A stretch of DNA of 64,000 nucleotides from Dictyostelium discoideum (taxonomy: Eukaryota), in NCBI GenBank assembly GCA_000004695.1, contig CM000154.2:3040001-3104000 (forward strand), read 5' to 3'. The number at the start of each line of letters is the position of its first letter. Within the stretch, counting starts at the first letter, position 1. Positions 6,500 to 28,641 of the stretch are shown here, in pieces. Both the position numbers and the translations under genes were made by a program. The notes under the pieces are model-generated. The model saw nothing but the letters and a program-made list of their open reading frames with translations, ran no database searches and was not told the DNA's origin.

Positions 6500-8726
6500 T
6501 TATTGTCTTCTTTTTTTATTACTTATATAATTATCGTCACTATCACTAGTGTTAATTTCTTTTCTTTTTGGTTTTGATCTCGATTTTGAAGAGGATGATG
6601 ATGATTTTGAGGAGGATTTTGAAGAAGATGATGATTTTGAGGAAGAAGATTTCAAAGTGGATTTAGAGGATGACGATTTTGAAGAAGAAGAAGATTTTAA
6701 TATTGGTTTCCTTCTTGAATTAAATGATTTATCATGCGATGATGATGATGATTTTGATGATTTTGATGCATTTTTAGCTTTTAATAATGGTTTCTTTTTA
6801 GATTTCTTTTTGTTATCAGAGTCTGAACTATCGCTATATCCATAATTATCACTATCACTATCGCTATTACTATCACTATCGCTATCACTATCACTATCGT
6901 TATCGCTATCACTACTTTCACTACTATCTATATTAATTTTCTTTTTACTATTTCCATTACTACTTCCATTATTTGTTATTACTTTTTTAGGTATTGGAAT
7001 TGATGCTAAAGGTATTTTACCTGTAATAGATAATGCTAAATTTGTATTTGTTATTGGTGAAGTTATAGATGTTGTTGTTGTTGTTGTTGTTGTTGTATTA
7101 TTTGTTGTTGGTGTAGTTGTAGTAGGTGGGGTTGATACTGTTGTTGGTATTGTAGCTTTTGATTCAGAAGTAATTGGTGTCGTAGGATTTGATTGAGTTT
7201 TTGACGATGATGATTTGGATTTCTTTTTTACAGATTCTGGTGATTTTTCATCAACCAAACCATCTGATCCCTTTTGTTCTTTTAATGATTTTATTACATT
7301 TGAAATATTATCAGTTATTGCTTTACAAACATCATTACTTTCATCATTTATTAAATTTTGAATTTCTTTTTGAATATATACAGCAACTCTATTAATAATA
7401 ATAATAATATATAATCAACATATAGATATTATGTATAAATATTAATATTTTATGATATTGTTAGAATTTTCTAATTTTAAAATTATATATACATACGATT
7501 CAGTATTTTTTTTTAATTCACTCATTACATGTCTTTTTTGTAAACTTTTTGTTACAGCATATGCTTCTAATGTTTCATTATTCTTTAAAACTTCTTGAGT
7601 TTTCTTTAAAATACTATCACCAATACCTTTACAATTGATTTGAGTTGTAATAATATCTCTAATCTTATCAAATGTACCATTATTCTTTAATATATCTACA
7701 ATTTGTATCGATTTTTGTTGATAAAAACTAAATTCTGCTTGACTCATTGATTCTATAATAGATTTAGATTCAATTTCATCTTTAATTTTAACTATATTAT
7801 TATTATTGTTATTATTATTGTTATTATTATTATTATTATTACTATTACTACTACTATTATTACTATTATTACTATTATTATCTTCTTTCTTTACTTGAAT
7901 TGTTGTTGTTGTTGATGATGAAACTATTGATGGTGTTAATGTTGTTGGTGTTAATGTTGTTGGTGTTAGTGTTGGTATTGATGTGGTAGTTGTTGTTGTT
8001 GGTGTTGATGTTTGTTGAGGTATTTTTAATGGTGTTTCTACAGGGGTAATACTATCCCATTTTGAAGTTCTTGCTTCTAGTTTTACAGATGGTTGTATGT
8101 TATTACTATTATTGTTATTATCTACAGTTGTGGTGGTTGATGTTGTTGTTGGAGTTGTTGAAAATTTAGATTGAATAGGTGTAATTAGCGTATTTGGGAT
8201 TTGGGTTGGTGGTGAATCTTTATTATATCTATCATTAAATCTTTCAGAATAAGTTTCCCTACCTCTATCAATGAATCTATGATCATTATATTCACCACCA
8301 CCGCCACCACCTCTAAAACCACCACCTCCGATACCTCTATCACCACCACCACCATATCCACCCCTATGTGTGATACCTCTACCACCTCTAAAACCACCTC
8401 TACCTCTTTCATAGACACCTCTATCATATGCACCCATATCTCTATCATAATCTCTTTCATAGTAACCACTTATACCTCTATCGTAAGCTTCCCTTCTATC
8501 ACTCCAACTATTTTGATGATGATCTCTACCACCACCCCTCCAACTCGTTCCATAGTAACCACCGCCACCTCTATCATATCCAACACCACCCATTGTGGTA
8601 TTTCTATCATGATATCCACTATTATGATATCCACCAGAGGGTATGGTTGTATTTATTGGACTGTTTATTGTTGTATTAGTTTGAGTGTGAGTGTGAGGAA
8701 GAGGTATTGTTGGTATTTGAGTGTAA

Positions 8727-17843: not shown

Positions 17844-18475
17844 TGTTAAAAGATTATATAATCAATATATTTAAAAAAAAACTAAAATTAAAATTAATAA
17901 AAATAAAAACCAACTTTTGTGGTTTGGCCTAAAAAAAAAAAAAATTAAAAATTAAAAATAAAAAATAAAATCATGATTTTATTTTCATCAAAAAAAAAAA
18001 TTAAATAAAATCAAAAAAATTGTTTTTTTTTGTTTTTTTTTTTATTTTTTTTTTATATTAATTTTATATGGAAAAAAAAAAATAGTGAAAAATTAAAAAA
18101 TAATTGATTATAATAAATTCATTATTAAATTATTTTATTATTTATTGTCATTTTTTTAAGATTTTTCTTTGGATCTCTTATTGGTTTAAACAAATTTATA
18201 ATATAGCCTACAACACACCATGTTTTGTGGTGTTTTTCTTGAACACTATCCATATCAATCGATCCTACTGAAAATTTATATCTTAGTGGCATACTTGTAA
18301 TAAATCATGATCAATTTTTATTTTTTATTTTTTATTTTTTTATTTTTATTTTTCAAATTACAAACAAACTTTGGGTGTTTTTTTTTTTAAAAAATAAAAT
18401 AGAATACTCAAATGGGTTGGAATAAATTTAAATCTTTTTTTTTTTCTTTCAAATTTTGAAAATGAAAAAATCGAG

Positions 18476-18612
18476 GTCAGATGGTGAAGTTACTTTTTTT
18501 TTGAATTGGATAACGCAATTATTAGTTGCTTCTCCTTGAGATACTAGATCCCATTTTATTTTTAGTTTTTTTTTTTTTTTTTTTTTTAAAGGGTGTATAA
18601 AAGAGGGGTTAG

Positions 18613-18657
<45 letters not shown>

Positions 18658-18929
18658 TTTCGAATTTTGAATTGTATTATTACTTTTGATTAAAACATCT
18701 TTTTTGTCCAAATTTTTTTCTAAATCTTTTTTTATTTTATCATCAGCTTCATGATTGATGTTGATGACATATTTGAATTGTTTTTTTTTTGTTTGAGTTT
18801 TATCCACAATTTCCCTTATTTTTTGTAGGCATTTGTGTTGCTTAATATTTGTGGGGTTGTTTGTAATTTTCATCTTTTTTTCTTTCTATTTTTTTTATTT
18901 TACTTTGAAAAGTTAAAAATCTGGAAATT
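18476..18929 (-). repeat. about 470-bp repeat unit, copy 1 (retroelement-associated module; continues across the N gap to about 19070)
   Basis: About 90% identical to 19386..19870. It starts with GGTCAGATGGTG (the first 12 nt of the tRNA-Val at 21365) fused to AAGTTACTT, and it is bounded by long poly-T. It carries the small ORF 18586..18873. Confidence 0.6.
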
Positions 18930-19029
18930 NNNNNNNNNNNNNNNNNNNNNNNNNNNNNNNNNNNNNNNNNNNNNNNNNNNNNNNNNNNNNNNNNNNNNNN
19001 NNNNNNNNNNNNNNNNNNNNNNNNNNNNN
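18930..19029. other. assembly gap (100 N)
   Basis: A run of N characters, conventionally a 100-bp scaffold gap placed inside the repeat. Confidence 0.95.
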
Positions 19030-19061
19030 TTGGAAATTTCCTGATTAACTTAGGTTCCCCG

Positions 19062-19113
<52 letters not shown>

Positions 19114-19385
19114 TTTTTTATTTTTTTTTTTTTTAAGTCTTTTTTATATGAAAAATGAAACAATCAAAAAAAGAGATTGTTGTTGTTGTTTGTTTTTTCG
19201 ATCTGATTATTTTTTGCTTTTTTTTTGAAAATTTTCAAAACGAAACAAATAATAAATTACAACAAAGTAAAAAGATGGCTTTTTAAAATAGTTTATTTAT
19301 TTATTTATTTGTTTTTTAAGTCTTTTTTATATGAAAAATGAAACAATCAAAAAAAGAGATTGTTGTTGTTTGTTTTTTTCGATCT

Positions 19386-19397
19386 CTGATGGTGAAG

Positions 19398-19438
<41 letters not shown>

Positions 19439-19526
19439 AATTGGATAACGCAATTATTAGTTGCTTCTCCTTGAGATGTTAGATCTCATTTTATTTTTAG
19501 TTTACAGGGTCTCTAAGAGGGGTTGG

Positions 19527-19565
<39 letters not shown>

Positions 19566-19855
19566 TTTCGAATTTTGAATTGTATTATTACTTTTGATTA
19601 AAACATCTTTTTTGTCCAAACTTTTTTCTAAATCTTTTTTTATTTTATCGTCTGGTTCGTGATTGATGTTTATGACGTATTTGAATTGTTTTTTTTTAAT
19701 TGAGTTTTATCCACAATTTCGCTTATTTTTTGTAGGCATTTGTGTTGCTTAATATTTGTGGTGTTGTTTGTGATTTTCATTTTATTTTCTTTCTATCTTT
19801 TTATTTTTCTTTAAAAAGTTAAAAATCTGGAAATTTTCTGATTAACTTGGGTTCC

Positions 19856-19870
<15 letters not shown>
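19386..19870 (-). repeat. about 470-bp repeat unit, copy 2 (frameshifted relative to copy 1)
   Basis: Collinear with copy 1, including GATGGTGAAGTTAC, TTGAATTGGATAACGCAATTATTAGTTGCTTCTCCTTGAGAT and the terminal CTGGAAATTTTCTGATTAACTTGGGTTCCCAGG. About 70-bp sub-repeats (AAGTCTTTTTTATATGAAAAATGAAACAATCAAAAAAAGAGATTGTTG..) lie at 19131..19200 and 19318..19386. Confidence 0.6.
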
Positions 19871-19908
<38 letters not shown>

Positions 19909-19970
19909 GGTGAAGTTTTTTTTTTTTTTTTAATAACATCACTCAATTTGAGTGTGTTCTAGGAGAGTTT

Positions 19971-20019
<49 letters not shown>

Positions 20020-20039
20020 CTTGTTATTCTTATTTTTTT

Positions 20040-20134
20040 TATTATTATTATTATTATTATATTATTATTATTATTATATTATTATTATTATATTATTATT
20101 ATTATTATATTATTATTATTATTATTATTGTTAT

Positions 20135-20169
<35 letters not shown>

Positions 20170-21330
20170 AGTAGTTGGTGTTATATGAGCAGTATGGTAT
20201 GAAGTGTTCCGGGATGTTTATGGTCATGAGTTTCGAGTTCCAGTTGTGGCTGAATTTTTCGAGTCTTCTTTTTATTGATGCGGTCCGATTGATTGACTCT
20301 CGGTTATCAGTGCATCTTAGTTCTTGACGTAGTTGTTTTTCTACTATCTTTCTTGTTCTATCCCATTCGGCATCTCTCGCTTTTTTGATTTTATGAATTA
20401 TTTGGTTCTCTGTTATTATTGTAGTGTTATCGTTGAATTTTATTTGATTTCTTCTGTACCATATCGATTCCATAATGGCTCCTATCAGATTTGATGAGAA
20501 TGGTGTGAGTAGTTTTCCGAGAACTTTTTCGCTCCATGGACCGTGGTAAGTGTTGTTGGAGTCTTTACAGACCTTTTGATAGATTGAGTCGATATTCTGT
20601 TTTATTGATTTGCATTCGAAGAAGATGTGCATAGACGATTCTTCTTCTTTACATGAGTGGCAATTCTCCCCATGGTGTTTTGGAAGTGCCTTGATTAGAT
20701 ATCTCCATGCTAAGTCTCTTCCTTTGATAGTTGTGATTGATCTGGCTTCTCTAAATGGTAGAATTGGGTGATTAATGTTCTTTTGAATCAGTTTTTGACC
20801 TGTTGTTGGCTGGTGTTTGTTCCATCCCTTGTATTTGATATCCATCATGTTTCTATAGATTACTTTTAATTTTTGTTTGTTTTCGTATTTGGGTTTGACT
20901 TGGTTTAGTTTGAGAGTTATTCGCTCTCTTGGGTGGTGCAACAACTTCCAGGCTTTCCAGCATTTGATGTGAATCCTTGATAGTGAGTTTTCTTTTTCCG
21001 ACTTCCAGACTTCCATATGTGGAGGGCAGTTCTGGTCGTCTTTTTCTCTGAGGTATTGTTCGTATATCCATGCTTTCTGGGCATTGGATCTGGTTGCCAT
21101 ATTCCAGAGTTCCAGGCCTCCAATTTCATAGTCTCTTCTGCTCCTTTCTTTTGAGATAGCCCACCTGTCCCCTTTGAATAACATGTTGGCATTAACGTTC
21201 TCCAGTTTCTTTATGTCATTTATTTCGTTGATGTATAGTTGGAATGTTAGTTGGGACAGGAGGTATGATTTGAGGATTGTGATTCTACCTTTTAGCGTTG
21301 ATGACACGCTCGAGTAGCATTGGTGAAGTT
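20040..21330 (-). mobile_element. 5'-truncated non-LTR (LINE-like, TRE-type) retrotransposon fragment: ORF2 C-terminal region, with a 3' poly(A) and (AAT)n tail
   Basis: The 380-aa ORF (20165..21307) has near-balanced base composition, unlike the host. It contains a Cys/His-rich motif (HHGENCHSCKEEESSMHIFFECKS) typical of the LINE ORF2 C-terminus. The stop is immediately followed by an A-run on the minus strand (T-run 20141..20166) and (AAT)n. It lies 5' of, and head-to-head with, tRNA-Val. Confidence 0.6.
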
Positions 21331-21364
21331 ACTTATAATACTACGATAGCAATAGATTTTGCAA

Positions 21365-21438
21365 GGTCAGATGGTGTAGTCGGTTATCACGGTTGCTTTA
21401 CACGCAACAGGTCTCGAGTTCGATCCTCGGTCAGATCA
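21365..21438 (+). tRNA. tRNA-Val (anticodon UAC)
   Basis: It folds as a cloverleaf: acceptor GGTCAGA/TCAGATC (one A-A mismatch at 5-68), D arm GTGT-AGTCGGTTA-TCAC, anticodon arm GTTGC-TTTACAC-GCAAC (anticodon TAC), variable loop AGGTC, T arm TCGAG-TTCGATC-CTCGG, discriminator A. The D arm (GTGT/TCAC) and the ACAC after the anticodon match eukaryotic tRNA-Val. Confidence 0.75.
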
Positions 21439-21464
21439 TATGTTGGTATAAATTTGTGTATTTT

Positions 21465-21513
21465 ACGAACTTCGGGTTTTACAGGTAAAAAAAAAAAAAC
21501 GAACTTCGGGTTT
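21465..21513 (+). mobile_element. minimal retroposition footprint: a 15-bp direct repeat (ACGAACTTCGGGTTT) flanking TACAGGT plus A12-13
   Basis: Perfect 15-bp direct repeats at 21465..21479 and 21499..21513 bracket a short sequence ending in poly(A), 27 bp downstream of the tRNA 3' end. This is a TSD plus poly(A) signature of target-primed reverse transcription. Confidence 0.45.
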
Positions 21514-21539
21514 AATGCCAATATTGATATAAGGAACAC

Positions 21540-22030
21540 AATTAATATTAAATGAATGCTGTTAAACCTGAATCAAAACTAACTTTATTTTTTCAGTTTT
21601 CATAGTTTTCGAGTTTTAGTTATTTTCGAGAAGTTTCTAAAATATATAAAACTAAATAAATTAATTATTTTTATTATTATTGTTTGCAACAGTTGGTTCA
21701 AAACATTGGTGGCAAATAACTAGATACAAAAACAATAAATGTTTTAATAGAATTACACCTATAATTCCTCCAAATATAATATATCATGAGGTTAACATAG
21801 ACTACTCAAAGAATACTTTGAAGGGTATAAATTTGTAAATTATAATTTCTATATAATGTCTTTGATAATTCATAACATTTGGATTCAGGTATAGTAATAA
21901 AAAATCAAAAAAATTAAATCAAACTGTTTAGAGACCCAAAAGATTTCCTAAACAAATAATAAAATTAAGAAAACTATTCAAGTGTCAGAGCTTCCAAACA
22001 TTTTTACTTTGACTAATTCATTTTATTAAT
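21540..22030. mobile_element. GC-richer non-host-like segment downstream of the tRNA (possible degenerate retroelement fragment)
   Basis: Its composition (about 35-40% GC, no homopolymer runs) contrasts with the flanking AT-rich DNA. There is no long ORF. It lies about 100 bp 3' of tRNA-Val, where Dictyostelium TRE3-type elements insert. Confidence 0.25.
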
Positions 22031-22084
22031 TTCATTTTATTATTAAATTTATTTTAATTATTTTATTGATTTAAATTTAAATAC

Positions 22085-22115
<31 letters not shown>

Positions 22116-22302
22116 TCTCAAAAACTATATTTAAAATTTAAAATTATTTATTTGATAATCTAAATTAAAAAAGGAATAAAAAATATTCATCTTAAAAAAA
22201 CTAAATAAACACTACATAACAAGTACCTTAGTTTGGTAAATAATTATTTACCAATTTTTAAAAATATATATTATTATTATTATTATTATTATTTAAAAAA
22301 GT

Positions 22303-23884
22303 TTATCTTTTTTCTTTATTTAATTTTGAAATTGCCCAATAACCACTTACAAAAAAGAAACAAATCCACAATATAATAATACCAATACCTTTTTGAAGTG
22401 TCCAATCTTCAAGATTATAAAATTTTAAAACATCATTACCATTTGGGAATTGACAAAAATCATTTGGACATTCTAATGGATAATCTTTAAATTGAGCGAC
22501 CATTACAGTTGCATAACCATAGTATAAAGGATTTAACCAATGGATCCAACCAAAACTTTTTGGTAATTGTTTCACAGGAACTAAATGGCCCATAAATAGT
22601 AAAAAAGTAATTGAAATTGTTGTACCATAAATAAAAGTTAAATCAGATTTACCAGTTATATTAGAGATTGCAATAATATATAAATCTGATAATAAATTAA
22701 TTAAATATAAAATGAAATAAGTAATGAAAAAGCTTGAAAAATTCCATCTTAAATGATTAATTGTATAAACTAGTAATGATACGATTAAGGAAACCAAAAA
22801 TTGAATAAATGCTTCAGTTGTAATTGTTGATAGATAAAATGGTAGAGAATGATAAATTTTTGAAGCTCTTTCTGAATTGAAAACTTCACGATTTGATAAG
22901 AACAATGTAATACATGTAAATGGTATTAAGTTTAAAACTGCAATTAAAAAGAATAAAATACCAGAAATTTTTAAAACATCCTCTTGACTTGGTGATAATG
23001 TACCAAAACAGGCGGAAAATAATAAACCAATCATAAAACCACCAGATAAACGTGTAATATATTGAGTTGAATTTCTAAAGAAATCTTTGAAATTTCTATT
23101 CAATAAAATTTTATATTGATATAGTAATGAGCAACTTTTATTTGGTTCAATTGAACGATTAAAAGGTTGAATTCTTGAAACTGCCAACATATTATCTCTC
23201 CAATTGGTTTCCCATGATTCACAAATTTCTTCATAATGATCACATTCGGAAATTTCATGACATGTATCCAATATGAAATCTGCAGGATTTGTATAGTTTG
23301 GACATTGATATTGATTTGGTAATGATGAAAGATAATTTAAAACATCATTACCACAATAAATCATTCTACCTTTTAACATAATCATAATTTTATTAAATAA
23401 ATGATAAATTTCTGGACGTGGTTGATGAATTGAACAAATTACAGTTACACCTTTAATTACGGTTAAATTCATTAAAACTTTCATAACTTTTAAAGCATTT
23501 AATGAATCTAAACCACTTGTAGGTTCATCTAAAAATAATAAAGATGGATTTGTAACTAATGCACAACCAATTGAAACTCTTTTCTTTTCACCACCTGATA
23601 AACCTTTTACAATCATACCACCAGGTAAAATACCACCAATTTTTGATTTTGATTTTTTTGTTAAACCAATATCTTTTATTACTTGTTCAACAACTTTCCA
23701 TTTATCTTGATCACTTAAACCTGGTAATCTTAAATCTGCATGAAATTTTAAAGTTTCTTCAACTGTTGAAGTTTGTAATAATATTTCATCTTGAGTTACA
23801 TAAGAACAATACTAATTTAAATTTTAAAATAAAAAAAATTTAAAAAAATAAAAAATAATTAATATAATTAAATAAATAAATAAA

Positions 23885-23920
<36 letters not shown>

Positions 23921-24459
23921 TTTTTATATGCATCTCCAATTTCTTTACCATTAACTAAAATTTTACCACTAATTGTACCAGTTGATTTTCTATTTGCAAG
24001 AATATCTAATAATGTTGATTTACCACTACCAGAAGGACCAAATAAACCAACCATTTCACTTTTTTCAATTATACCACTAACATTTGAAAGAATTGTAATT
24101 TCCTTTTCAATTTTACCATTTGTTGTTGATCTTGTTTGTTGTGGATTCATTGATTGATCAATTTTTGAAATATTTAAACTATTTGTTGGTAAAATCGATG
24201 ATCTTGATTGTTGTGGGGTTTGTAAACCTGATGCTGAAGATTCAACATCATATGATGAATTTGAGTTAGAAGAGTTAGATCTTTCCATTTCCAATTTTTT
24301 TTTTCTTTTTTTTTCATCTTTTATTTGTTTTTTATAATTTCTATTTTCAGTTTTATAAGAAATATTTTCAAAAATAACTTGAACACCAATATTATTATCT
24401 GAATTTAAATTTGTTAAATTATTATTATTATATGGAAAATTTGGGGTTGATATTTCTGA

Positions 24460-24490
<31 letters not shown>

Positions 24491-24506
24491 AAATTATAAT
24501 TATCAA

Positions 24507-24563
<57 letters not shown>

Positions 24564-24858
24564 CAATATTATTATAATTGTTACTATTATTTTTATTATT
24601 GTTATTATCAATATTATTGTTATTATCAATATTATTATCAATATTATTAATATTATTAATATTATTATTAGCAATATTATTATTATTATTATCAATATTA
24701 TTATTATTATTTCCAATACTATTATTATCTATATTATTATTATCAATATTATTATCAATATTATTTTTATTATGAATACTATTAGTATCAATATTAGTAT
24801 TATCAATATTATTATTGATGTTATTACAATTTGTATTATTTATTGAAATAACTTCCAT
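22303..24858 (-). CDS. ABC transporter G-family (ABCG/White-type) half transporter, NBD-TMD (2 exons: 24858..23920, 23811..22303)
   Basis: Walker [10 protein letters not shown], signature [12 protein letters not shown], Walker [13 protein letters not shown] and an H-loop are followed by 6 TM helices. The intron GTAAAA..aattAG (minus-strand intron 23919..23812, 108 nt) sits after ..[10 protein letters not shown]. The N-terminus is a 190-aa poly-Asn region. Exon 2 aligns with the paralog at 26245 right at the junction ([15 protein letters not shown] ~ FCSYVTQEEVFLETS). Confidence 0.85.
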
Positions 24859-26244: not shown

Positions 26245-28428
26245 TTATCTTTTTTCTTTATTAAATTTATAAAGTCCAATATAAGCTAAAATATAAAAAA
26301 ATGCTATCCAAATTGTTAAAATACCAATTGATTTATTATATTCCCAATTTTTTAAACCTAAAAATTCAATTAAATTATTACCATTCGAATAAAGACATGG
26401 TATTGGTGGTTGAGGACATTGAAATTCAAAATCTCTATATTGAATGATTACTATTGATGAGAAACCATAAAATAGATAATCAATATGATGAATCCAACCA
26501 AAACTATCAGGTAATGAATTAATTGGTACTAAAAATCCGGAGAATAATACCAATACTACTGATACACCTGTACAATATGAAAATGTTAAATCAACAGTTC
26601 CAGCAATATTTGACATTGCTATTACCATAAAAACTGATGCTAAAAATACCATATAAAATGAAATCAATGATAATATATATGCTTCAAATGACCATCGCAA
26701 ATGAACAATACAATAAATTATTGTTGTAATAATTAATACAACAAAGAATGATGATACAATTTCAATTAACATTGATCCTATAAAATAAGGAAATGGATGA
26801 TAGATTTTTGATGCCCTTTCAGAATTAAATAAAGTTCTAATTGAAACAAATGTTGAAATACTTGAATATGGTAATAAATTTAATGAAGTTATAATAAAGA
26901 AAAATAAAGCTGATACTGATTGAGCCTCATTTTGATCCAACCCATCATAACCAACTGTCCCAAAACATGCAGAGAACAATAATCCAATTAATATTGCAAT
27001 TACAATCTTTGAGAAAAACACTACCCTATTCCTCACAAAACTTTGATAACTTCTTTTTTGACAAACCCAATATTGATAAATGAAACCAACTCTCTTTGGT
27101 ATATCAATATTAATTGGATCATTGGAAATGGTTGGCTGTATTTCATGTTTCCAATATTTTTCCCATGTATCAACAGTTGTTGAATATTGAGATGGATTAT
27201 TAACAATTTCATCACATACATCCAATATGAAATCAGCAGGATTCATTTGTGGTGGACATTTATAATTTGAATCTATACTTGAGAGATATTCTAAAATATT
27301 TGAACCACTATAAACCATTCTCCCTTTTAATACAACCATAATATTACTAAATAAATAAAAAATTTCAGGACGTGGTTGATGTACTGAGCATACAACTGTT
27401 ACACCTTTCATTTTAGTTAACTCTAATAAAACTTTCATTACTTTTAATGAATTTAATGAATCTAAACCACTTGTAGGTTCATCTAAAAATAATAAAGATG
27501 GATTTGTAACTAATGCACATCCAATTGAAACTCTTTTCTTTTCACCACCTGATAATCCTTTTACTATCATACCACCCGGTAGAATACCACCAATTTTTGA
27601 ATTTAATTTTCTATCTAATCCAACATCTTTTAAAACTTGTTTAATTCTTATATCTTTTTCAGTATCTGTCATATCTGGTAACCTTAAATCTGCATGAAAT
27701 TTTAAAGTTTCATAAACTGTTGATGTTTCTAAAAACACCTCTTCTTGAGTTACATATGAACAAAACATTTTATAAGCTTCACCAATTTCTTTACCATTTA
27801 CTAATATTTTACCAGTGATTGTACCTGTTGATTTCCTATTTGCAAGTATATCCAATAATGTAGATTTACCACTACCTGATGGACCCATTAATGCAACCAT
27901 TTCACCTTTTTCAACAATACCACTAACATTTGATAAAATTGTTAATTCCTTCTCAATAATTCTATCAATTGGTAATTTATTAACTTGTGATTCAATATCT
28001 TCAATATCAATTTTACCAGATTCTAATTTTTTAATAATTTTTTTTTGTTCATTATATTTTTTATTTAAAACTTTATAACAAATATTTTCAAATGTAACTT
28101 GAACTCCAACATTATTATTAATATTAATAATTTCATTATCATTTGATCTACCATTAGTAATTTCATTATTAAAAGTACCACTTGAATCACTATTAATACT
28201 ATTCCTTCTATTTTCAATGTTTTTAATTTTTGTTTGAATTCCACTTTCAATATCTTTATTATTATTATTACTATTACTATTTAAATTTGAATTATCTGAA
28301 ATTAATTTTTCACTTAAATTGATTTGTGGTGTTTGTGGTGATAAAGAGAGTGATGATAATGAATATTCATTATTTGGTTGCTTTGGATGTAATGTATTTA
28401 TTACTTCGTTTTTAAATTGTTGTTGTTC

Positions 28429-28517
<89 letters not shown>

Positions 28518-28641
28518 GATTTGATAAAATTTGTTCCTCATTTATATTATTTCTTGAATTTTTATCTTCAAAATTTTCATCATTTTTTTCATCAGACTTA
28601 TCATCAATAATTTCAAAATTATTATTTCCTATATCTTCCAT
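26245..28641 (-). CDS. ABC transporter G-family half transporter, intronless tandem paralog
   Basis: The 798-aa product has the same NBD motifs and TMD as the 22303 gene (about 75% aa identity in the core). It is continuous through the position where the neighbour has an intron. The N-terminus has a Q36 run encoded by pure (CAA)n (plus strand (TTG)n, 28417..28517). Confidence 0.85.

What the first reader, a model, noticed from the sequence alone, without database searches (positions are those of the whole stretch)
21465..21513. Poly(A)-only micro-insertion with a perfect 15-bp target-site duplication 27 bp downstream of the tRNA
ACGAACTTCGGGTTT occurs twice (21465..21479, 21499..21513), separated only by TACAGGT plus A12-13. 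A direct repeat bracketing a sequence that ends in poly(A) is the footprint of target-primed reverse transcription with extreme 5' truncation (effectively only the tail was copied). The position downstream of a tRNA gene matches TRE3-type targeting. Such near-empty footprints are rarely annotated.
Basis: seen in the sequence. Interest (0 to 1): 0.5.

Follow-up and report, generated by a model that had tools for sequence, protein, structure and literature searches.

The report
Tail-only retrotransposon footprint beside tRNA-Val
A 19-base insert (TACAGGT plus a run of A) flanked by a perfect 15-base duplication sits just downstream of a Dictyostelium tRNA-Val gene; it is most likely an almost completely truncated copy left by a tRNA-targeting retrotransposon, which is a real but ordinary kind of scar.

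Summary
ACGAACTTCGGGTTT occurs exactly twice in the 64 kb window, at 21465-21479 and 21499-21513. The two copies are separated only by TACAGGT plus A12-13. The first copy starts 27 nt after tRNA-Val(UAC) (21365-21438, + strand). A second D. discoideum assembly carries the identical structure, so it is not an assembly artefact.

Two paralogous tRNA-Val(UAC) flanks and four sister-species orthologous flanks lack the 15-mer and any duplication.

The anatomy fits target-primed reverse transcription:
- a pure A tail;
- a 15 bp target-site duplication, the same size class as the 14-16 bp duplications of the TRE5 elements upstream of this same tRNA;
- the same orientation as the tRNA;
- an insertion point 41 bp downstream, at the lower edge of the published TRE3 range of 40-150 bp.

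Longer truncated poly(A) fragments (about 200-235 bp) lie at the equivalent place beside other tRNA genes, so this looks like the extreme end of a continuum.

Two things remain unshown. I found no empty allele. The 7-nt body cannot be assigned to a source: it differs from the two D. discoideum TRE3-like 3' ends I could retrieve and shares only AGGT-An with a D. firmibasis element.

Verdict: a real but ordinary heavily truncated TRE-type insertion. The TRE3 attribution is probable, not proven. Interest is low.

The parts
21365..21438 (+). tRNA-Val(UAC) gene, the presumed targeting landmark. Its internal B box, AGTTCGATCCT, lies at about 21416-21426.
   Evidence: ARAGORN; Rfam tRNA, 54 bits.
21461..21464 (+). 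TTTT run immediately 5' of the duplication. It is the first run of four or more T after the tRNA in this assembly, so it is a candidate Pol III terminator. The inferred first (bottom-strand) nick lies between 21464 and 21465 (TTTT|A).
   Evidence: Read directly from the sequence. The terminator role and the nick position are inference.
21465..21479 (+). Target-site duplication, copy 1 (ACGAACTTCGGGTTT).
21480..21486 (+). The 7-nt body of the insert (TACAGGT): the last templated bases before the tail. Its source RNA is unidentified.
   Evidence: Across 254 kb of Dictyostelium DNA, no TE 3' end other than this site has TACAGGT followed by an A run.
21487..21498 (+). Pure poly(A) tail, A12. Base 21499 is a 13th A shared with copy 2 of the duplication.
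   Evidence: The run is also A13 in the second assembly.
21499..21513 (+). Target-site duplication, copy 2. Together with the following AATGCC it reads CGGGTTTAATGCC, which aligns with the external B box (CGGGTTCGATTCT) of the sister-species orthologs.
   Evidence: Alignment A1 gives the alignment to the ex-B region; the homology call is tentative.
20165..21320 (-). Context, not part of the micro-insertion. A 5'-truncated TRE5-type element (C-terminal part of ORF2) with its head towards the tRNA. Its 5' junction is 44 bp upstream of the tRNA.
   Evidence: The 380-aa ORF is 50-54% identical to the C-terminal 380 residues of 805/806-aa RVT_1 proteins of D. discoideum. Position and orientation match published TRE5 behaviour.
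21321..21334 (+). Context. The tRNA-proximal copy of the TRE5 target-site duplication TGGTGAAGTTACTT. Further exact copies lie at 19390-19403 and 18482-18495. This shows that TRE-type insertions at this locus make 14-16 bp duplications.

Best explanation
This is a retro-insertion made by target-primed reverse transcription (TPRT) using the endonuclease and reverse transcriptase of a tRNA-gene-targeting non-LTR retrotransposon, most likely a TRE3-family element.

Inferred steps:
1. The machinery was recruited downstream of tRNA-Val.
2. The bottom strand was nicked at TTTT|A (21464/21465 in today's coordinates).
3. The freed 3' end primed on the poly(A) tail of an RNA.
4. Reverse transcription copied the tail and only 7 further nucleotides (TACAGGT) before it stopped or lost the template.
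5. The top strand was cut 15 bp downstream (GGGTTT|AATGCC).
6. Fill-in of the staggered break duplicated ACGAACTTCGGGTTT.

Shown: the A-B-A structure, the tail, the orientation, the position, the duplication size, and its presence in two assemblies. Inferred: the nick positions, the enzyme family and the identity of the template RNA. The element has no coding capacity and probably no function. It is a scar of an almost abortive retrotransposition.
For: Structure. There is a perfect 15-nt direct repeat around a 7-nt body plus A12-13. Intact 3' end, poly(A) tail and flanking duplications are the three textbook TPRT hallmarks, and premature termination gives 5' truncation (PMC5402677). The tail and the flanking duplications are shown here; whether the 7-nt body is an intact 3' end could not be tested.

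Specificity. Among 289 A-runs in the window, the only comparable G/C-containing flanking repeats are those of the TRE5 elements at this same tRNA. Those are 14-16 nt long, the same size class.

Position and orientation. [quoted passage not shown] TRE5 elements insert 44-54 bp upstream in the opposite orientation (PMC5911963; PMC5006619). Here the tail is on the tRNA strand and the insertion point is at +41. The locus is demonstrably a TRE target, because a TRE5-type element sits 44 bp upstream.

Continuum of truncation. Other tRNA 3' flanks carry truncated poly(A) fragments in the tRNA orientation, with duplications:
- D. firmibasis orthologous tRNA-Val: 235-nt body, 14/16-nt duplication, insertion at +57, terminus ...GAATAGGT(A)13. 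This shares AGGT-An with the insert here.
- D. discoideum tRNA-Lys in L009: 203-nt body, 11/12-nt duplication, insertion at +105.

Nick context. In three cases the duplication starts with A directly after T: TTTT|A here, TTAT|AA for the TRE5 element, TCTT|A in L004.

Derived state. Two paralogous D. discoideum tRNA-Val(UAC) flanks and four sister-species orthologous flanks have no 15-mer and a single ex-B region.

Not an artefact. The structure is identical in an independent assembly.
Against: No empty allele was found. Both D. discoideum assemblies available are filled and nearly identical to each other. Sister-species flanks are too diverged to give a base-exact empty site.

Seven nucleotides are too few to assign a source. 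They differ from the two TRE3-like 3' termini recovered from D. discoideum (...CAGGGTGTAATG-An in L009 and ...TATTTACACTTT-An in L010). CAG|GTAAAA also resembles an ordinary Dictyostelium 5' splice site.

The insertion point (+41; duplication starting at +27) is at or below the lower edge of the reported TRE3 window and far from the typical distance of about 100 bp.

The inferred primer end (...GTTCGT-3') offers only one T to pair with the poly(A) tail.
Confidence: 0.7

Rival explanations
1. The enzymology is the same (TPRT by TRE machinery), but the template was a cellular polyadenylated RNA mobilised in trans rather than the retrotransposon's own RNA. This would be an extremely truncated processed pseudogene.
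For: The 7-nt body does not match the two D. discoideum TRE3-like 3' ends retrieved. Nothing in 7 nt ties it to a TE.
Against: Non-LTR elements generally prefer their own RNA (established knowledge for L1-type elements; not tested for TRE3). A sister-species element at the orthologous position ends in AGGT-An. Only two of the four described TRE3 families could have been sampled.
Confidence: 0.12
2. The structure arose by local, non-retrotranspositional duplication. In this reading the A run and TACAGGT were already present, and the 15-mer was copied 34 bp downstream by replication slippage or by templated break repair.
For: Short templated duplications do occur at breaks, and A runs are very common in this genome (289 runs of at least 9 A in 64 kb). 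No empty site is available to exclude this.
Against: Slippage yields head-to-tail AB-AB units, not A-B-A, and Tandem Repeats Finder finds no array. The combination of a pure A run abutting copy 2, a duplication of exactly TRE size, the tRNA-strand orientation and a position inside a TRE target zone would all have to be coincidental. No other A run in the window has such a repeat apart from the TRE5 ones. Paralogs and orthologs show no predisposing repeat.
Confidence: 0.1
3. This is the remnant of a longer TRE3 insertion. A later internal deletion removed everything from the 5' junction to 7 nt before the tail.
For: Longer truncated TRE3-like fragments exist at other tRNA genes. TE-rich tRNA flanks are rearrangement-prone, as the pile of TRE5 fragments at 18482-21320 shows.
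Against: The deletion would have had to start exactly at the junction between the first duplication copy and the element, leaving both 15-nt copies perfect. Truncation during TPRT gives that junction for free.
Confidence: 0.06
4. The structure is a chance repeat or an assembly artefact.
For: The window has an assembly gap 2.4 kb away (18931-19029) and a repeat-rich neighbourhood.
Against: Shuffles expect 0.04 matches to the 15-mer. The identical structure is in an independent chromosome-level assembly.
Confidence: 0.01

Closest known systems
[quoted passage not shown]
   Same: It lies downstream of a tRNA gene, in the same orientation as the tRNA, carries an oligo(A) tail and has a flanking duplication. 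The position falls within the published 40-150 bp window at its lower edge. 5' truncation is the rule for TRE copies: it is described as typical of TRE5-A, and all the TRE3-like fragments seen here are truncated to about 200-235 nt.
   Different: Only 7 nt of body remain, so no homology to any TRE3 can be shown. The insertion is much closer to the tRNA than the typical distance of about 100 bp. The body differs from the two D. discoideum TRE3-like termini I could retrieve.
Severely 5'-truncated L1 and Alu insertions in mammals (classical TPRT products)
   Same: It shows two of the three defining hallmarks: a poly(A) tail and flanking target-site duplications of 10-20 bp. The third, an intact 3' end, cannot be judged from a 7-nt body of unknown source. 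Truncation is explained by premature termination of reverse transcription, and very short copies cannot be assigned to a subfamily (PMC5402677).
   Different: The enzyme lineage and targeting logic differ: here targeting is to a Pol III gene rather than to TTTT/AA sites genome-wide. The inferred nick, T|AAAA on the bottom strand, leaves a single T as primer.
TRE5 insertions at the same tRNA (window 18482-21334)
   Same: They are the same class of element and make duplications of the same size (14-16 nt against 15 nt). In both, the duplication begins with A after T.
   Different: TRE5 elements sit 44 bp upstream of the tRNA in the opposite orientation, and they retain hundreds to thousands of bases of body.

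Membership tests
TPRT-generated (LINE-type) insertion | 3' poly(A) tail abutting the downstream flank | tested here: met
   A pure A12-13 run lies at 21487-21499, directly followed by copy 2 of the duplication. It is the same in the second assembly.
TPRT-generated (LINE-type) insertion | Flanking target-site duplication of roughly 10-20 bp | tested here: met
   The duplication is 15/15 nt exact. It is the same size class as the TRE5 duplications at this locus, 14-16 nt.
TPRT-generated (LINE-type) insertion | Body is the intact 3' end of a known source RNA | tested here: inconclusive
   Only 7 nt (TACAGGT) remain. They do not match the two D. discoideum TRE3-like termini found. They share AGGT-An with a D. 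firmibasis element.
TPRT-generated (LINE-type) insertion | An empty (pre-insertion) allele exists in a related genome | tested here: inconclusive
   Both D. discoideum assemblies are filled. Sister species and paralogs lack the 15-mer and have a single ex-B region, but their flanks are too diverged for a base-exact empty site.
TRE3 family | Integration 40-150 bp downstream of a tRNA gene (typically about 100 bp) | tested here: inconclusive
   The insertion point is at +41/+42 and the duplication spans +27 to +41. That is the lower edge of the published range and is not typical.
TRE3 family | Same transcriptional orientation as the tRNA gene | tested here: met
   The tRNA and the A tail are both on the + strand.
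TRE3 family | Sequence homology to TRE3-A, -B, -C or -D | not testable with these tools
   The body is too short. No TRE3 reference sequence or TRE3 protein could be retrieved: every TRE protein found was TRE5-type, and the key papers are not held.
Simple tandem duplication (slippage) | Head-to-tail repetition of a whole unit (AB-AB) | tested here: not met
   The structure is A-B-A. Copy 2 is followed by AATGCC, not by TACAGGT. Tandem Repeats Finder reports no array.
External B box (ex-B) of Dictyostelium tRNA genes | GGTTCGAnTCC-like motif about 12-40 bp downstream of the tRNA | tested here: inconclusive
   Copy 2 plus its flank reads CGGGTTTAATGCC. This aligns with CGGGTTCGATTCT of the D. 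firmibasis ortholog in 9 of 13 positions, at a similar distance from the tRNA. The core TTCGA is TTTAA here. Nine of the ten other D. discoideum tRNA flanks examined, and all four sister-species flanks, were checked for this motif; most of them have a clear ex-B box.

The most novel reading that the evidence does not exclude
Tail-only or near-tail-only TPRT footprints may be a systematic, unannotated class at Dictyostelium tRNA genes. If so, they would record abortive TRE3 integration attempts. They would show that TRE3 machinery can cut directly at the external B box, 25-40 bp from the tRNA, well inside its canonical window. Counting them would give a genome-wide estimate of how often retrotransposition is aborted, and would refine the map of where the machinery docks on the TFIIIC/ex-B complex.
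Probability: 0.2. Interest if true: 0.35.

Novelty: new member of a known kind. Interest (0 to 1): 0.17.

Why it matters
On its own it matters little. It is one more 5'-truncated copy in a genome where 61% of tRNA genes already carry TRE elements.

Its modest value is methodological. Homology-based repeat annotation cannot see such a copy, so counts of TRE3 integration events, and maps of their distance from tRNA genes, are biased towards longer copies. This footprint marks an integration about 60 bp closer to the tRNA than the typical distance, apparently inside a decayed external B box. If more such footprints exist, they would sharpen the picture of how TRE3 reads the Pol III transcription complex.

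Tried and rejected
1. Empty-site search in other strains.
- Exact-protein look-ups with window ORFs returned nothing for the 437-aa ABCG exon. For the 353-aa and 798-aa ORFs they returned only one other D. discoideum assembly, and it is also filled.
- The homolog database held only sister-species orthologs of the neighbouring genes. The ACTFIR, ACTFIW and D. cf. discoideum versions of this locus could therefore not be reached.

2. Sister-species comparison.
- A syntenic tRNA-Val(UAC) was found in D. citrinum (two strains), D. dimigraforme and D. firmibasis.
- Only the ex-B region aligns. This gives a single-copy state, but not a base-exact empty site.

3. TRE3 3' ends.
- All TRE proteins recovered were TRE5-type.
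- Five TRE5-anchored loci, carrying 10 further tRNA genes, yielded two TRE3-like 3' fragments. Neither ends in TACAGGT.
- BLAST among all the tRNA 3' flanks found no shared TRE3 family.
- Glöckner 2001 and Marschalek 1990 are not in the paper library.

4. Possible older TRE3 remnant. I considered whether 21514-22119, which ends in A22, is an older TRE3 remnant that would explain the long tRNA-to-ABCG spacer. It has only a weak duplication and no repeat copies elsewhere. Left open.

5. Other RNA genes. Rfam finds nothing but the tRNA in 20900-22400.

6. Ideas rejected on structure.
- DNA-transposon excision footprint: a 15-bp duplication plus an A tail does not fit.
- Endonuclease-independent capture at a break: such events lack duplications.
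- LTR element Skipper-2, which also targets tRNA 3' flanks: it has no poly(A) tail.

Full report
**What the window is**

The window is about 20% G+C. Its proteins are most similar to those of Dictyostelium species. It is 99.2-99.8% identical to a D. discoideum chromosome assembly, GCA_054883475.1. It holds one tRNA gene, tRNA-Val(UAC), at 21365-21438 on the + strand.

**Checking the observation**

- The sequence from 21465 reads ACGAACTTCGGGTTT / TACAGGT / A12 / ACGAACTTCGGGTTT.
- The 13th A of the run is also the first base of the second copy.
- These are the only two matches to the 15-mer in the window even with 2 mismatches allowed. Shuffles expect 0.04.
- I scanned all 289 A-runs of at least 9 nt on both strands for an exact direct repeat of at least 11 nt that abuts the run. 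Most hits are pure A/T low-complexity sequence.
- Only three hits have 5 or more G/C. One is this site. The other two belong to the TRE5 elements upstream of the same tRNA.
- Tandem Repeats Finder sees no array.
- A second, independent assembly has the same structure with the same A13.

**Surroundings**

Upstream of the tRNA lies a pile of minus-strand poly(A)-ended fragments, from 18482 to 21320.

- The fragment nearest the tRNA is a 380-aa ORF (20165-21307, minus strand). It is 50-54% identical to the C-terminal 380 residues of 805/806-aa D. discoideum proteins that carry an RVT_1 domain.
- Its 5' junction is 44 bp from the tRNA and its orientation is opposite to the tRNA. That is exactly the published behaviour of TRE5 elements: 44-54 bp upstream, opposite orientation (PMC5911963).
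- Its target site, TGGTGAAGTTACTT, occurs three times exactly: at 18482, 19390 and 21321. Each distal copy is followed by poly(T).
- TRE-type integrations at this locus therefore make 14-16 nt duplications that begin with A after T.

**What the micro-insertion looks like**

- Here the tail is on the tRNA strand.
- The duplication occupies +27 to +41.
- The insertion point is at +41/+42.
- The duplication is 15 nt long and begins with A after TTTT.
- A poly(A) tail and flanking duplications, two of the three classical hallmarks of target-primed reverse transcription, are present. The third, an intact 3' end, cannot be judged from a 7-nt body. Premature termination of reverse transcription is the accepted cause of 5' truncation (PMC5402677).
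- 5' truncation is described as typical of Dictyostelium TRE5-A integrations (PMC3159450).

**Comparison with other tRNA flanks**

I retrieved the orthologous locus, with the ABCG gene next to tRNA-Val(UAC), from D. citrinum (two strains), D. dimigraforme and D. firmibasis. I also retrieved 10 further D. discoideum tRNA genes from five loci. Among them are two paralogous tRNA-Val(UAC) genes.

- None carries the 15-mer.
- With the insert removed, CGGGTTTAATGCC in the window aligns with the external B box (CGGGTTCGATTCT and similar) of the sister species. That box is single-copy there. This suggests the integration cut inside a decayed ex-B box, and that the duplicated state is derived.
- Truncated poly(A) fragments in the tRNA orientation occur at several flanks:

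| Locus | Insertion position | Body length | Duplication | 3' terminus |
|---|---|---|---|---|
| D. firmibasis tRNA-Val (L004) | +57 | 235 nt | 14/16 nt | ...GAATAGGT(A)13 |
| D. discoideum tRNA-Lys (L009) | +105 | 203 nt | 11/12 nt | ...GGGTGTAATG(A)20 |
| D. discoideum tRNA-Val paralog (L010) | A13 at +313 | not determined | none recognisable | ...TTTACACTTT |
| D. citrinum tRNA-Val (L001) | A13 at +109 | not determined | none by my criteria | ...AACATACC |

(Sources.)

The micro-insertion therefore looks like the extreme end of a length continuum, not a different thing.

**What could not be shown**

1. There is no empty allele. The only other D. discoideum assembly reachable is filled and nearly identical to the window. 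Other strains could not be reached because look-ups work by exact protein sequence and the homolog database lacked the D. discoideum orthologs.
2. The source of TACAGGT is unknown. It matches neither D. discoideum TRE3-like terminus that I found. It shares only AGGT-An with the D. firmibasis element. CAG|GTAAAA is also the form of ordinary 5' splice sites in this genome. Reference TRE3 sequences and the primary papers were not available.
3. The distance to the tRNA is at the lower edge of the TRE3 range.

**Mechanism and rivals**

| Explanation | Confidence |
|---|---|
| TPRT by TRE-type machinery, most likely TRE3, with reverse transcription ending about 20 nt into the template | 0.70 |
| The same enzymology acting on a cellular poly(A) RNA | 0.12 |
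| Local duplication unrelated to retrotransposition; it must explain away the A-B-A form, the size, the orientation and the place | 0.10 |
| Deletion remnant of a longer element; it needs a deletion starting exactly at the junction | 0.06 |
| Artefact or chance; excluded | 0.01 |

**Verdict**

It is an ordinary product of a well-known process in a genome where most tRNA genes carry TRE elements. Novelty: a new member of a known kind. Interest is low. The only wider value would come from showing that such tail-only footprints are numerous.

Noticed in passing
window 18482-18495, 19390-19403, 21321-21334: The 14-nt TRE5 target sequence TGGTGAAGTTACTT occurs three times exactly (16 nt, GATGGTGAAGTTACTT, for the two distal copies). 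Each distal copy is followed by poly(T) and the same 3'-end sequence (GAATTGGATAACGCAATTATTAG). This indicates successive TRE5 integrations into the same site 44 bp upstream of the tRNA, each re-duplicating the target.
   Followed up: partly
window 18475-18486: GGTCAGATGGTG, an exact copy of the first 12 nt of the tRNA-Val gene, overlaps the start of the most distal TRE5 target-site copy (18482-18495). This suggests a relic of a tRNA 5' fragment in the original upstream region. Unexplained.
   Followed up: no
window 21369 and 21432 (tRNA positions 5 and 68): This tRNA-Val copy has A at both acceptor-stem positions 5 and 68. The same is true in the second D. discoideum assembly. The two D. discoideum paralogs and the D. 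citrinum and D. firmibasis orthologs have G and G, and D. dimigraforme has A and G. The 5-68 pair is never Watson-Crick in any of them.
   Followed up: no
window 21439-21464 compared with L005 17117-17142: The two D. discoideum assemblies differ at three positions in the 26 nt between the tRNA and the duplication (TTGGTAT against TTTTAT; GTGTAT against GTTTAT). The rest of the 30 kb differs by only about 0.03-0.1% mismatches. The changes create or destroy a T4 run, which is a candidate Pol III terminator.
   Followed up: partly
window 21514-22302: The spacer from the tRNA to the ABCG gene is 865 bp here, against 179-306 bp in the sister species. It contains an A22 run (22094-22115) preceded by ...ACTTACATTTT. 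This is possibly an older decayed poly(A) insertion, but only a weak duplication was found and no related copies elsewhere.
   Followed up: partly
L004 9146-9382 (D. firmibasis); L009 about 7727-7929, minus strand (D. discoideum): The truncated TRE3-like 3' fragments downstream of tRNA genes contain B-box-like motifs (GAGTTCGAACCCC and GATGTTCGATTCCC in L004; GGAGTTCGGATAC in L009). This raises the possibility that these 3' regions carry TFIIIC-binding-like sequences.
   Followed up: no
window 18931-19029: A 99-base run of N (an assembly gap) lies inside the pile of TRE5 fragments. The second assembly bridges this region with a different arrangement.
   Followed up: partly
window 22303-24858 and 26245-28641 (minus strand): Two tandem ABCG-type half-transporter genes, about 52% identical to each other at the protein level, lie next to the tRNA. 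The proximal gene has no D. discoideum entry in the protein database, although orthologs from D. citrinum, D. dimigraforme and D. firmibasis are present.
   Followed up: partly
L001 8515-8602 compared with L002 (two D. citrinum strains): The two D. citrinum strains differ by roughly 110 bp downstream of the orthologous tRNA-Val. The extra sequence in L001 includes a fragment ending ...AACATACC(A)13. This is a likely strain-polymorphic poly(A) insertion at the same tRNA.
   Followed up: no
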